A stretch of DNA of 3,569 bases, from sequence record EF204939.1. One strand, written 5' to 3'. Below, piece after piece: positions 1,335-3,534 of this stretch. The notes beneath the pieces were generated by a model. It saw nothing but the letters and a program-made list of their open reading frames with translations, was not told the origin of the DNA and did not search any database. Every line of letters starts with the position of its first letter. The first letter of the stretch is position 1. Source of the DNA: Escherichia phage MS2. The position numbers and the translations under genes are program-made.

Positions 1335-1727
1335 ATGGCTTCTAACTTTACTCAGTTTGTTCTCGTCGACAATGGCGGAACCGGCGACGTGACTGTCGCT
1401 CCAAGCAACTTCGCTAACGGGGTCGCTGAATGGATCAGCTCTAACTCACGCTCTCAGGCTTACAAAGTAACCTGTAGTGTTCGTCAGAGCTCTGCGCAGA
1501 ACCGCAAGTACACCATCAAAGTCGAAGTGCCAAAAGTGGCTACTCAGACCGTCGGTGGCGTACAGCTTCCTGTAGCCGCATGGCGTTCGTACTTAAATAT
1601 GGAATTAACTATTCCAATTTTCGCGACGAACGACGATTGCGCGCTTATTGTTAAGGCGATGCAAGGTCTCCTAAAAGATGGAAACCCAATCCCCTCAGCA
1701 ATCGCAGCCAACTCCGGAATCTATTAA
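1335..1727 (+). CDS. cp: Major coat (capsid) protein, 130 codons including initiator Met (129-aa mature protein)
   Basis: ORF track 1335..1727. Translation MASNFTQFVLVDNGGTGDV...ANSGIY is the MS2 coat protein sequence with a few substitutions. Operator-binding residues (T45, R49, K61, Y85, N87 in mature numbering) are present. Confidence 0.97.
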   Translation: MASNFTQFVLVDNGGTGDVTVAPSNFANGVAEWISSNSRSQAYKVTCSVRQSSAQNRKYTIKVEVPKVATQTVGGVQLPVAAWRSYLNMELTIPIFATNDDCALIVKAMQGLLKDGNPIPSAIAANSGIY

Positions 1728-1905
1728 TAGATTCCGGCCATTCCAACATGAGGATTACCCATGTCGAAGACAACAAAGAAGTTCAACTCTTTATGTATTG
1801 ATCTTCCTCGCGATCTTTCTCTCGAAATTTACCAATCAATTGCTTCTGTCGCTACTGGAAGCGGTGATCCGCACAGTAGAGACTTTACGGCAATTGCTTA
1901 CCTAA
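1678..1905 (+). CDS. L: Lysis protein L (75 aa), +1 frame, overlapping the coat 3' end and the replicase 5' end
   Basis: ORF track 1678..1905. Translation METQSPQQSQ...LLEAVIRTVETLRQLLT closely matches the MS2 L protein, including the hydrophobic C-terminal segment LYVLIFLAIFLSKFTNQLLLSLLEAV. Position matches the MS2 L gene. Confidence 0.9.
   Translation: METQSPQQSQPTPESINRFRPFQHEDYPCRRQQRSSTLYVLIFLAIFLSKFTNQLLLSLLEAVIRTVETLRQLLT
1725..1730 (+). terminator. Tandem in-frame translational stop codons UAA-UAG ending the coat gene
   Basis: Seen directly: taa 1725-1727 immediately followed in frame by tag 1728-1730. In MS2-like phages, ribosomes terminating here are thought to reinitiate at the upstream lysis start codon. 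Confidence 0.85.
1746..1764 (+). promoter_or_regulatory. Coat-protein-binding translational operator hairpin (TR) enclosing the replicase SD and start codon
   Basis: Seen directly: acatgaggattacccatgt. Stem acatg/catgt, bulged A, lower stem gg/cc, loop AUUA; contains SD gagga 1750-1754 and replicase ATG 1761-1763. Identical to the classic MS2 19-nt operator as I recall it. Confidence 0.93.
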
Positions 1906-3398
1906 GAGACGAGTTGCTCACAAAGCATCCGTCTTTAGGAAATGGTAATGACGAGGCGACCCGCCGGGCTTTAGCTATCGCTAAGCTCCGGGAGGCGAAT
2001 GAACGATGTGGCCAGATTAACAGAGAAGGTTTCTTACATGACAAATCCTTGTCGTGGGATCCGGATGTTTTACAAACCAGCATCCGTAGCCTTATTGGCA
2101 ACCTTCTCTCTGGCTATCGTTCGTCGTTGTTTGGGCAATGCACGTTTTCCAACGGTGCCTCTATGGGGCACAAGTTGCAGGATGCAGCGCCTTACAAGAA
2201 GTTCGCTGAACAAGCAACCGTTACCCCCCGCGCTCTGAGAGCGGCGTTACTGGTCAGAGACCAGTGTGCGCCGTGGATCAGACACGCGGTCCGCTATAAC
2301 GAATCATATAAATTTAGACTCGTTGTAGGGAACGGAGTGTTTACAGTTCCGAAGAATAATAAAATAGATCGGGCTGCCTGTAAGGAGCCCGATATGAATA
2401 TGTACCTTCAGAAAGGAGTTGGCGCTTTTATACGGCGTCGTCTCAGATCCGTTGGTATAGACCTGAATGATCAAACGATCAACCAGCGTCTGGCTCAACA
2501 AGGCAGCGTCGATGGCTCATTGGCGACGATAGACTTATCGTCGGCCTCTGACTCCATCTCTGACCGCCTGGTGTGGAGTTTCCTCCCACCTGAGCTATAT
2601 TCATATCTCGATCGTATCCGCTCCCACTATGGAATCATAGATGGAGAGACGATACGATGGGAACTATTTTCCACAATGGGAAATGGGTTCACTTTTGAAC
2701 TAGAGTCCATGATATTTTGGGCTATAGTAAAAGCAACCCAGATCCATTTTGGTAACGCCGGAACCATAGGCATCTACGGGGACGATATTATATGTCCCAG
2801 TGAGATTGCACCCCGTGTGCTAGAGGCGCTAGCCTACTACGGTTTCAAACCGAATCTTCGTAAAACGTTCGTGTCAGGGCTCTTTCGCGAGAGCTGTGGC
2901 GCGCACTTTTACCGTGGTGTCGATGTCAAACCGTTTTACATCAGGAAACCAGTCGACAATCTCTTCTCCCTTATGCTGATCATGAATCGGCTTAGGGGAT
3001 GGGGTGTTGTCGGAGGTATGTCAGATCCTCGCCTATATAAGGTTTGGGTACGACTGTCCTCCCTGGTTCCATCGATGTTCTTCGGTGGGACGGACCTTGC
3101 TGCTGACTACTACGTAGTCAGCCCCCCGACAGCGGTCTCAGTTTATACTAAGACCGCATATGGGAGGTTGCTCGCGGACGCCCGTACCTCGGGTTTCCGT
3201 CTTGCTCGTATCGCGAAAGAGCGTAAGCACTTTAGCGAGAAGCATGACAGTGGTCGCTACATAGCATGGTTCCATACTGGAGGTGAAATCACCGATAGTA
3301 TGAAGTCCGCCGGCGTGCGTGTTATGCGCACTTCGGAATGGCTAACGCCGGTTCCCACATTCCCGCAGGAGTGTGGGCCAGCGAGCTCTCCTCGGTAG
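1761..3398 (+). CDS. rep: RNA-directed RNA polymerase (replicase beta subunit), 545 aa
   Basis: ORF track 1761..3398. Translation begins MSKTTKKFNSLCIDLPRDLS as in MS2 replicase and contains the catalytic YGDD motif. Stop TAG at 3396-3398. Confidence 0.97.
   Translation: MSKTTKKFNSLCIDLPRDLSLEIYQSIASVATGSGDPHSRDFTAIAYLRDELLTKHPSLGNGNDEATRRALAIAKLREANERCGQINREGFLHDKSLSWDPDVLQTSIRSLIGNLLSGYRSSLFGQCTFSNGASMGHKLQDAAPYKKFAEQATVTPRALRAALLVRDQCAPWIRHAVRYNESYKFRLVVGNGVFTVPKNNKIDRAACKEPDMNMYLQKGVGAFIRRRLRSVGIDLNDQTINQRLAQQGSVDGSLATIDLSSASDSISDRLVWSFLPPELYSYLDRIRSHYGIIDGETIRWELFSTMGNGFTFELESMIFWAIVKATQIHFGNAGTIGIYGDDIICPSEIAPRVLEALAYYGFKPNLRKTFVSGLFRESCGAHFYRGVDVKPFYIRKPVDNLFSLMLIMNRLRGWGVVGGMSDPRLYKVWVRLSSLVPSMFFGGTDLAADYYVVSPPTAVSVYTKTAYGRLLADARTSGFRLARIAKERKHFSEKHDSGRYIAWFHTGGEITDSMKSAGVRVMRTSEWLTPVPTFPQECGPASSPR
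2778..2786 (+). other. RdRp catalytic GDD motif (motif C) within replicase
   Basis: Codons ggg gac gat at 2778-2786 encode G-D-D in the context FGNAGTIGIYGDDIICP; frame verified from ATG 1761. Confidence 0.9.
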
Positions 3399-3411
3399 CT
3401 GACCGAGGGAC

Positions 3412-3534
3412 CCCCGTAAACGGGGTGGGTGTGCTCGAAAGAGCACGGGTCCGCGTAAGCGGTGGCTCCACCGAAAGGTGGGCGGGCTTCGGCCCAGGGA
3501 CCTCCCCCTAAAGAGAGGACCCGGGATTCTCCCG
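3412..3534 (+). promoter_or_regulatory. Cluster of short tetraloop-capped hairpins in the 3' UTR
   Basis: Seen directly: 3412-3425 ccccg-taaa-cgggg; 3431-3446 gtgctc-gaaa-gagcac (GNRA); 3451-3462 ccgc-gtaa-gcgg (GNRA); 3468-3481 ccacc-gaaa-ggtgg (GNRA); 3484-3495 gggc-ttcg-gccc (UNCG); 3522-3534 cggga-ttc-tcccg. Confidence 0.75.

What the first reader, a model, noticed from the sequence alone, without database searches (positions are those of the whole stretch)
1427..1744. Long-range coat-replicase (Min Jou) pairing appears weakened by one base pair
In MS2, coat-gene nucleotides 1427-1433 pair with 1738-1744 just upstream of the replicase start, coupling replicase translation to coat-gene translation. 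Here 1427-1433 is UGAAUGG and 1738-1744 is CCAUUCC, which gives 6 Watson-Crick pairs but a U1427-C1744 mismatch. From memory MS2 has A at 1744, giving 7 pairs. The same base change produces the K23Q substitution in L, so one nucleotide touches both a regulatory helix and a protein.
Basis: partly seen in the sequence, partly recalled or inferred. Interest (0 to 1): 0.5.

Follow-up and report, generated by a model that had tools for sequence, protein, structure and literature searches.

The report
Common natural variant of MS2 replicase switch
The window is an MS2-like RNA phage whose long-range helix hiding the replicase start has six base pairs instead of MS2's seven, but six is the usual state in wild relatives and in the outgroup phage fr, so the finding is an ordinary lineage polymorphism.

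Summary
Window 1427-1433 is UGAAUGG and 1738-1744 is CCAUUCC. MS2 RefSeq has CCAUUCA. Two papers give the Min Jou (MJ) helix exactly these coordinates. C1744 leaves a U1427/C1744 mismatch and makes L residue 23 Gln instead of Lys.

The reading "weakened" is only true relative to laboratory MS2. In 27 aligned genomes, C1744 occurs in the window, eight named non-MS2 isolates, nine environmental contigs and the outgroup fr (A1427/C1744). A tenth contig outside the alignment (L070) also has C. A1744 is confined to the MS2/R17/M12/ST4 clade plus DL1. Parsimony therefore makes C ancestral and MS2's seventh pair derived.

The six core pairs (GAAUGG/CCAUUC) are invariant and remain in the predicted minimum-energy fold. 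The modelled cost is 0.8-1.8 kcal/mol for the duplex and 0.4-1.1 kcal/mol for the ensemble. That lies within the natural spread. The stacked coat-terminator hairpin is 2.2 kcal/mol stronger here than in MS2. A synonymous U1427G would restore a pair, yet no genome has it.

One twist: in laboratory MS2, A1744G is a published replication-defective cheater. Folding suggests this is a G-specific extension of the operator hairpin that C does not cause.

Verdict: a known element carrying a known-type natural variant. Interest is low.

The parts
1427..1433 (+). 5' strand of the Min Jou long-range helix, inside the coat gene. U1427 is the third base of the Ala30 codon GCU. Positions 1428-1433 (GAAUGG) are the Glu31 and Trp32 codons.
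   Evidence: Sequence. Coordinates from PMC12143590 and PMC11339067. 1428-1433 are invariant in 27 genomes. Position 1427 is U in 26 genomes and A in fr.
1738..1744 (+). 3' strand of the Min Jou helix (CCAUUCC), lying between the coat-terminator hairpin and the operator hairpin. 1738-1743 pair with 1433-1428. C1744 is unpaired with U1427; MS2 has A here.
   Evidence: 1738-1743 are invariant. Position 1744 is C in 14 and A in 5 of the 19 distinct rows.
1744..1746 (+). L (lysis protein) codon 23. It is CAA (Gln) here and AAA (Lys) in MS2.
   Evidence: ORF 1678-1905. L alignment: Q23 in every C1744 genome and in the homologous fr sequence; K23 only in the MS2 clade and DL1.
1714..1737 (+). Coat-terminator (CT) hairpin with a perfect 10-bp stem CCGGAAUCUA/UAGAUUCCGG. 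The coat stop codon UAA lies in the loop. Its closing pair C1714-G1737 directly abuts the MJ pair G1433-C1738.
   Evidence: Stability is -13.7 kcal/mol here against -11.5 in MS2, which has an A1719/C1732 mismatch. Covariation at 1718/1733 (AU 12, CG 3, GC 1, GU 1).
1746..1764 (+). Translational operator (TR) hairpin containing the replicase AUG (1761-1763). It is the coat-protein binding site.
   Evidence: Rfam RF02359 MS2 operator hairpin, 60.6 bits, E = 4.8e-13, window 1729-1764. All 7 pairs are invariant.
1404..1427 (+). Local hairpin (AGC 1404-1406 / GCU 1425-1427 around ACUUCG/CGGGGU). It gives U1427 an alternative local partner, A1404, and abuts the MJ helix.
   Evidence: MFE and centroid structures.
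1335..1727 (+). Coat gene. Ribosomes translating it pass through 1427-1433 and open the MJ helix.
   Evidence: ORF. The protein is 100% identical to the DL54 and FrBlood coat. The mechanism is as summarised in PMC11339067.
1761..3398 (+). Replicase gene, whose initiation region is masked by the MJ, CT and operator structures.
   Evidence: ORF. Annotation of homologous records.

Best explanation
The window is a natural genome of the environmental (DL16-like) branch of Emesvirus zinderi, the MS2 species. It carries the ordinary Min Jou translational-coupling helix in its common six-pair form. GAAUGG (1428-1433, coat codons Glu31-Trp32) pairs with CCAUUC (1738-1743). Together with the stacked coat-terminator hairpin (1714-1737) and the operator hairpin (1746-1764), this helix buries the replicase ribosome-binding region. 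Ribosomes translating the coat gene melt the helix and allow replicase initiation. Coat-protein dimers later shut initiation off at the operator.

C at 1744 is a lineage polymorphism and probably the ancestral state. It leaves position 1427/1744 unpaired and makes L residue 23 Gln. The seventh U-A pair is a peculiarity of the MS2/R17/M12 laboratory clade and DL1.

Shown here: the sequence, the distribution of the polymorphism, the invariance of the six core pairs and the predicted folds. Inferred: that coupling works here as in MS2 and that the missing pair has little or no fitness effect.
For: Identity of the genome. The window is 92-95% identical to MS2-group genomes, with the same four ORFs at the same coordinates. 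Differences from relatives are mostly synonymous, and only 22 substitutions are private.

The element. The MJ coordinates are confirmed from two papers. The six core pairs are present in the MFE of four different sequence contexts with P = 0.58-0.97. They are also in the MFE and centroid from the folding tool.

Distribution of the variant. The unpaired 1427/1744 state is found in 14 of 19 distinct aligned rows, while the six other pairs never vary. C1744 is present in DL16, DL52, DL54, Hu-Sh-YMS, FrSaffron, FrHenna, FrBlood, GER_L00928, nine environmental contigs and fr. L070, outside the alignment, also has it. Trees rooted on fr place A1744 only in the MS2/R17/M12/ST4 clade and DL1. Many of the C1744 genomes are plaque-isolated phages (records), so they are viable.

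Size of the effect. Duplex ddG is 0.8-1.8 kcal/mol and ensemble ddG is 0.4-1.1 kcal/mol. MJ plus CT stability is -21.5 kcal/mol here and -21.1 in MS2. The natural range runs from -14.9 (fr) to -25.5 (R17).

No compensation. U1427 is a synonymous site (GCN), but the compensating G is absent from all 27 genomes.
Against: There is no measurement of replicase translation or coupling for any C1744 phage. In the narrowest context (1420-1770), predicted P(MJ core) falls from 0.95 to 0.60 with C, so some extra leakiness is possible. The nine environmental contigs were retrieved through an identical coat protein, which biases the count towards this clade. Recombination occurs in this group (DL52/DL54; PMC3499819), which blurs ancestral-state inference. 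In laboratory MS2, position 1744 is functionally sensitive: A1744G is a replication-defective cheater. The site is therefore not intrinsically neutral.
Confidence: 0.7

Rival explanations
1. Compensated weakening. C1744 really does loosen the MJ helix and would make replicase translation leakier. In this lineage the loss is offset by neighbouring structure. In the window that is the stronger, perfectly paired coat-terminator hairpin that stacks on the MJ helix. In DL16/DL52/DL54 it is an extra A1434-U1737 pair at the other end of the helix.
For: The CT hairpin is -13.7 kcal/mol here against -11.5 in MS2, so the sum with MJ is almost identical (-21.5 against -21.1). DL16-type genomes have U1737, which gives a duplex as stable as MS2's (-9.8 against -9.6). 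PMC11979748 states that the CT structure immediately upstream of MJ also affects replication. From memory, not checked here: Licis et al. 1998 reported that MJ disruptions can be compensated by stabilising an adjacent long-distance interaction.
Against: There is no consistent association across genomes. R17 combines the 7-bp MJ with the strongest CT (-15.9). The ERR157388xx contigs combine the 6-bp MJ with a weak CT (-10.8). fr has a 6-bp MJ and the weakest CT (-6.9). These phages therefore span about 10 kcal/mol without an obvious trade-off.
Confidence: 0.2
2. Protein-driven change. Base 1744 varies because of selection on L residue 23 (Lys against Gln) in the basic N-terminal part of the lysis protein, and the RNA pairing consequence is incidental.
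For: Q23 co-occurs with other N-terminal L differences that separate the clades (F5S, A14E/G, R19F). K23E is listed as reducing lysis-protein expression in PMC11979748, citing Chamakura et al. 2017.
Against: The N-terminal part of L is highly variable among these genomes, whereas residues 24-65 are almost invariant. That pattern argues for weak constraint rather than adaptive tuning at residue 23. There are no functional data on K23Q.
Confidence: 0.1
3. The mismatch is a sequencing or assembly error, or a minority variant, in this one genome.
For: None specific. The window is not in the collections searched.
Against: The same base is present in 18 other independently determined aligned genomes from several countries and methods, and in L070.
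Confidence: 0.01

Closest known systems
Min Jou (MJ) long-range interaction of phage MS2 (1427-1433 x 1738-1744), which couples replicase translation to coat-gene translation
   Same: The position, register and flanking hairpins (coat terminator and operator) are the same. The six core pairs GAAUGG/CCAUUC are identical, and so is the gene order.
   Different: The terminal U1427-A1744 pair of laboratory MS2 is a U/C mismatch here. The adjacent CT hairpin is perfectly paired, whereas MS2 has an A/C mismatch.
The same helix in environmental E. zinderi isolates (Hu-Sh-YMS, FrSaffron, FrHenna, FrBlood, GER_L00928) and in phage fr
   Same: All have the six-pair helix with C1744 and an unpaired 1427/1744 position. 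FrSaffron and SRR17071157 are identical to the window across 1710-1766.
   Different: fr has A rather than U at 1427 and a much weaker CT hairpin. DL16, DL52 and DL54 add an A1434-U1737 pair.
MS2 point-mutant cheater A1744G (L K23E), PMC11979748
   Same: The same nucleotide is affected. It sits at once in the MJ helix, next to the operator hairpin, and in L codon 23.
   Different: G is replication-defective and does not form plaques alone in laboratory MS2. C is the common state in plaque-forming wild isolates. In silico, G creates a contiguous UUCGA/UCGAA extension of the operator hairpin (-10.4 against -6.4 kcal/mol) and displaces the MJ helix, while C does not.

Membership tests
Emesvirus zinderi (MS2-like group I levivirus) genome | A plus-strand genome of about 3.57 kb encoding maturation, coat, overlapping lysis and replicase genes in MS2 order, with high nucleotide identity to MS2 | tested here: met
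   3569 nt. ORFs at 130-1311, 1335-1727, 1678-1905 and 1761-3398. 92.4% identical to MS2 and 94.7% to DL16.
Min Jou translational-coupling helix | Complementarity between coat-gene nucleotides 1427-1433 and nucleotides 1738-1744 just 5' of the replicase operator hairpin | tested here: met
   Six of MS2's seven pairs are present. The six are the only pairs conserved across the species.
Min Jou translational-coupling helix | The helix forms in the context of the folded RNA | tested here: met
   Prediction only. It is in the MFE in four sequence contexts with P = 0.58-0.97, and in the MFE and centroid of 1400-1770. No probing data exist for this genome.
Min Jou translational-coupling helix | Evolutionary support for the pairing | tested here: inconclusive
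   Within E. zinderi the six pairs never vary, so there is no covariation either way. More distant lineages have differently sequenced complementarity at the same two places: UGGAUUU/AAAUCCA in ERZ1744908 and GCUUUC/GAAAGC in GA. Stronger alternative partners are also predicted for those genomes.
Min Jou translational-coupling helix | Replicase translation depends on coat-gene translation through the 5' strand | not testable with these tools
   This needs nonsense mutants or a reporter assay, as summarised for MS2 in PMC11339067.
MS2 operator (TR) hairpin, Rfam RF02359 | Match above the gathering score to the covariance model, covering the replicase start | tested here: met
   60.6 bits against a gathering score of 40, E = 4.8e-13, window 1729-1764.

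The most novel reading that the evidence does not exclude
The natural C1744 lineage acts as a ready-made separation-of-function allele for the confounded cheater site 1744. C abolishes the U1427-A1744 pair entirely, yet it is carried by plaque-forming wild phages. The defect of the laboratory cheater A1744G therefore cannot be due simply to loss of that MJ pair. Folding points instead to a G-specific five-pair extension of the operator hairpin (1741-1745 with 1764-1768). That extension would lock the replicase start and capture the MJ 3' strand. A weaker version of the same idea is that in C1744 phages the balance between the MJ and CT helices has been re-tuned.
Probability: 0.3. Interest if true: 0.4.

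Novelty: already known. Interest (0 to 1): 0.15.

Why it matters
The finding matters little on its own. It shows that the textbook seven-pair Min Jou helix describes the laboratory MS2 lineage. The six-pair GAAUGG/CCAUUC core is what is conserved across the species, and this is useful for anyone modelling or engineering MS2 translational coupling. It also gives a natural control for interpreting the published A1744G cheater mutation, because a different base at the same site is well tolerated in nature.

Tried and rejected
1. Primary papers on the MJ helix could not be read, because none is held. These were van Himbergen 1993, Berkhout and van Duin 1985, and Licis 1998. The coordinates were taken from two later papers instead. 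My recollection that Licis 1998 writes '1427-1434 / 1738-1745' is unverified. No eight-pair register exists in the sequence, since A1434/G1737 and C1426/A1745 cannot pair.

2. Scans of viral contigs and metagenome contigs for the operator 18-mer gave one and 30 loci. Only L016 and L018 were MS2-like, and both are laboratory-type MS2. The other 29 metagenome loci showed no similarity to the window.

3. Accessions AF227251 (JP501) and EF204939 (J20), recalled from memory, are not in the collection.

4. Exact-match look-ups of the window's L, replicase and maturation proteins found nothing, so the source of the window is unknown.

5. I tested whether C1744 extends the operator hairpin. It adds only an isolated C1744-G1766 pair worth 0.1 kcal/mol and makes no change in a longer context. 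Rejected.

6. I tested whether a stronger CT hairpin systematically accompanies the six-pair MJ. It does not.

7. The Rfam TLS-PK3 hit at 3306-3443 scores 21 bits against a gathering score of 80, with E = 0.18. I treated it as chance.

Full report
WHAT THE WINDOW IS

The 3569-nt window is a complete genome of an MS2-like levivirus (Emesvirus zinderi). Its four ORFs sit at the MS2 coordinates: maturation 130-1311, coat 1335-1727, lysis 1678-1905 and replicase 1761-3398. It is 92.4% identical to MS2 RefSeq. It is 94-95% identical to environmental isolates such as DL16, Hu-Sh-YMS and FrSaffron, and to several wastewater-type contigs. No record exceeds about 95% identity, and its L, replicase and maturation proteins are not on record. 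Differences from relatives are overwhelmingly synonymous. Only 22 substitutions are private, and most of those are at third codon positions. It therefore looks like a natural, previously unsampled member of the environmental clade. Rfam recognises the MS2 operator hairpin at 1729-1764 (60.6 bits).

CHECKING THE OBSERVATION

Positions 1427-1433 are UGAAUGG and 1738-1744 are CCAUUCC. MS2 has CCAUUCA. Two independent papers give the Min Jou (MJ) interaction as 1427-1433 pairing with 1738-1744 (PMC12143590; PMC11339067), so the coordinates and register are right. The window has six Watson-Crick pairs (G1428-C1743 to G1433-C1738) and a U1427/C1744 mismatch. No alternative fully paired register exists, because A1434/G1737 and C1426/A1745 cannot pair. 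Position 1744 is the first base of L codon 23, which is CAA (Gln) here and AAA (Lys) in MS2.

HOW COMMON THE VARIANT IS

I aligned the window with 26 other genomes. These were named isolates from GenBank, two MS2-type metagenomic contigs, phage fr, and nine near-full-length environmental contigs found through the window's coat protein.

C1744 with U1427 occurs in:
- the window;
- DL16, DL52, DL54, Hu-Sh-YMS, FrSaffron, FrHenna, FrBlood and GER_L00928;
- all nine environmental contigs.

One further contig outside the alignment, L070, also has C. Phage fr, at 78% identity, serves as the outgroup. It has C1744 with A1427, so that position is unpaired there too. A1744 is found only in MS2, ST4, R17, M12, the two MS2-type contigs and DL1.

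A formal pair count over 19 distinct rows gives U-A in 5 rows and no pair in 14 rows at 1427/1744. The six other MJ pairs and all seven operator pairs never vary. Neighbour-joining trees rooted on fr, built from the whole genome and from the coat-L region, place A1744 on the MS2/R17/M12/ST4 branch and separately in DL1. Parsimony therefore makes C the ancestral state and the seventh pair a derived feature of the laboratory MS2 lineage.

Two caveats apply. The nine contigs share the window's coat protein and are therefore a biased sample. Recombination is also known in this group (PMC3499819).

A further argument is that U1427 is the wobble base of the Ala30 codon GCU. A synonymous change to G would restore a G-C pair with C1744, but none of the 27 genomes has it. 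This suggests there is little selection for a seventh pair.

HOW MUCH THE MISSING PAIR COSTS

With nearest-neighbour parameters, the isolated duplex is -6.5 to -7.8 kcal/mol with C and -7.3 to -9.6 with A. I folded four sequence contexts: 1400-1770, 1335-1800, 1300-1830 and 1420-1770. The six core pairs are in the window's MFE every time, with probability 0.58-0.97. Reverting C1744A raises this to 0.92-0.99 and lowers the ensemble free energy by only 0.4-1.1 kcal/mol. The folding tool gives the same structure in both the MFE and the centroid, and the region is far more stable than shuffled sequence (z = -6.4).

Even in MS2 the U1427-A1744 pair is marginal in the model (P = 0.26-0.72). The reason is that U1427 can alternatively close a local hairpin with A1404.

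The 3' strand of MJ is directly contiguous with the coat-terminator (CT) hairpin at 1714-1737. In the window this is a perfect 10-bp stem of -13.7 kcal/mol. In MS2 it is -11.5 kcal/mol, because MS2 has an A1719/C1732 mismatch. MJ plus CT sums to -21.5 here and -21.1 in MS2. Across natural phages this sum ranges from -14.9 (fr) to -25.5 (R17). The CT stem shows true covariation at 1718/1733. DL16, DL52 and DL54 have U1737, which adds A1434-U1737 (and U1435/G1736) to the other end of the MJ helix at the expense of the CT closing pair. Helix length at this switch is thus evolutionarily flexible around an invariant core.

MECHANISM

The following is taken from the literature summarised. The MJ helix, together with the adjacent structure, denies ribosomes access to the replicase start. 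Ribosomes translating the coat gene run through 1427-1433, open the helix and permit replicase initiation. Coat dimers later bind the operator hairpin and repress initiation. Every sequence component needed for this is present and predicted to fold in the window.

That coupling works here as in MS2 is my inference. It is supported by the fact that many C1744 genomes come from plaque-forming isolates (records). I put about 0.7 on the 'ordinary, essentially neutral polymorphism' reading. I put about 0.2 on a real weakening compensated by neighbouring helices; the lack of any consistent MJ/CT trade-off across genomes argues against this. I put about 0.1 on selection acting through L residue 23.

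A RELATED PUBLISHED RESULT

In laboratory MS2, A1744G (L K23E) rises repeatedly at high multiplicity of infection. It disappears at low multiplicity, is absent from plaques, and is interpreted as a replication-defective 'full cheater'. Its effects on MJ, on the operator hairpin and on L are confounded (PMC11979748; it is also seen on a cheater haplotype in PMC7442481). So position 1744 is not intrinsically neutral.

I folded all four bases at 1744 in both the MS2 and window backgrounds. G alone creates a contiguous UUCGA(1741-1745)/UCGAA(1764-1768) extension of the operator hairpin, at -10.4 against -6.4 kcal/mol. G also drops P(MJ core) to 0.05-0.19. A, C and U leave the local hairpin unchanged and keep the MJ helix. 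This is model-only. It does offer a testable reason why C is tolerated in nature while G is defective.

MORE DISTANT RELATIVES

Contigs whose coat protein is 75-79% identical have a 73-nt coat-replicase spacer. They carry AUCCA or AAAUCCA just 5' of the operator, complementary to UGGAU(UU) of the Trp32-Ile33-Ser34 codons. GA has GCUUUC/GAAAGC at the corresponding places. This suggests a positionally conserved but sequence-shifted MJ-type helix. Stronger alternative partners are also predicted in those genomes, so I leave the point open.

VERDICT

The mismatch is the common and probably ancestral state of a known regulatory helix, with a small predicted energetic effect. It is not a new feature. 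Interest is low. The only added value is the contrast with the A1744G cheater and the recognition that six pairs, not seven, form the conserved core.

Noticed in passing
window 1741-1768 (modelled with G at 1744); MS2 L001, same coordinates: In silico, the published MS2 cheater mutation A1744G makes a contiguous five-pair extension of the operator hairpin: UUCGA 1741-1745 with UCGAA 1764-1768, with A1746 bulged. Stability is -10.4 against -6.4 kcal/mol, and the MJ helix is displaced (P core 0.05-0.19). A, C and U at 1744 do not do this.
   Followed up: partly
L002 (DL16), L049 (DL54), L050 (DL52), at window-equivalent 1434-1435 and 1736-1737: These isolates have U at 1737. This allows A1434-U1737 (and U1435/G1736) to lengthen the MJ helix at its other end (-9.8 kcal/mol). 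The cost is the closing C1714-G1737 pair of the coat-terminator hairpin.
   Followed up: partly
window 1714-1737: The coat-terminator hairpin shows real covariation among isolates at 1718/1733 (A-U 12, C-G 3, G-C 1, G-U 1). Its predicted stability ranges from -6.9 (fr) to -15.9 (R17) kcal/mol. The window has a perfect 10-bp stem.
   Followed up: yes
window 1356-1382 with 1752-1777: In a wide folding context (1300-1830), the window's MFE replaces the operator hairpin with a long-range helix between early coat codons and the replicase start (UUUGUU/AACAAA, UCGACA/UGUCGA, UGG/CCA). Its probability is 0.41 here and at most 0.10 in 14 relatives. The difference is due to U1358 and the window-private synonymous U1382C. 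This is a model prediction only and may be an artefact.
   Followed up: partly
L062-L069 (Logan SRR3358xxxx; ENA ERZ28490357, ERZ1744908): This is a lineage whose coat protein is 75-79% identical to the window's. It has a 73-nt coat-replicase spacer (33 nt in MS2) and an operator variant ACAUGAGGAAAACCCAUG. Pre-operator AUCCA/AAAUCCA is complementary to the Trp32-Ile33-Ser34 codons, suggesting an MJ-like helix shifted by 4 nt.
   Followed up: partly
L051 (GA) coat nt 112-132 with 1712-1731: In phage GA, the strongest predicted partner of the pre-operator segment (-20.4 kcal/mol) lies at coat nt 112-132. It is not at the site homologous to MS2's MJ strand, where GCUUUC/GAAAGC is also possible. 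Significance against shuffles was not assessed.
   Followed up: no
whole window: The genome is absent from the GenBank phage set above 95% identity. Its L, replicase and maturation proteins are not in the 15-billion-protein collection, although its coat protein is common there (114 index blocks). Its substitution pattern is natural, being mostly synonymous with 22 private changes.
   Followed up: partly
L008 (GER_L00928), window-equivalent 1678-1680: The lysis ORF of this isolate begins with GUG instead of AUG (translated VETRS...).
   Followed up: no
window 3306-3443: There is a weak Rfam match to TLS-PK3 (21.3 bits against a gathering score of 80, E = 0.18) in the 3' end of the replicase gene and the 3' UTR. 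I regard it as chance.
   Followed up: no
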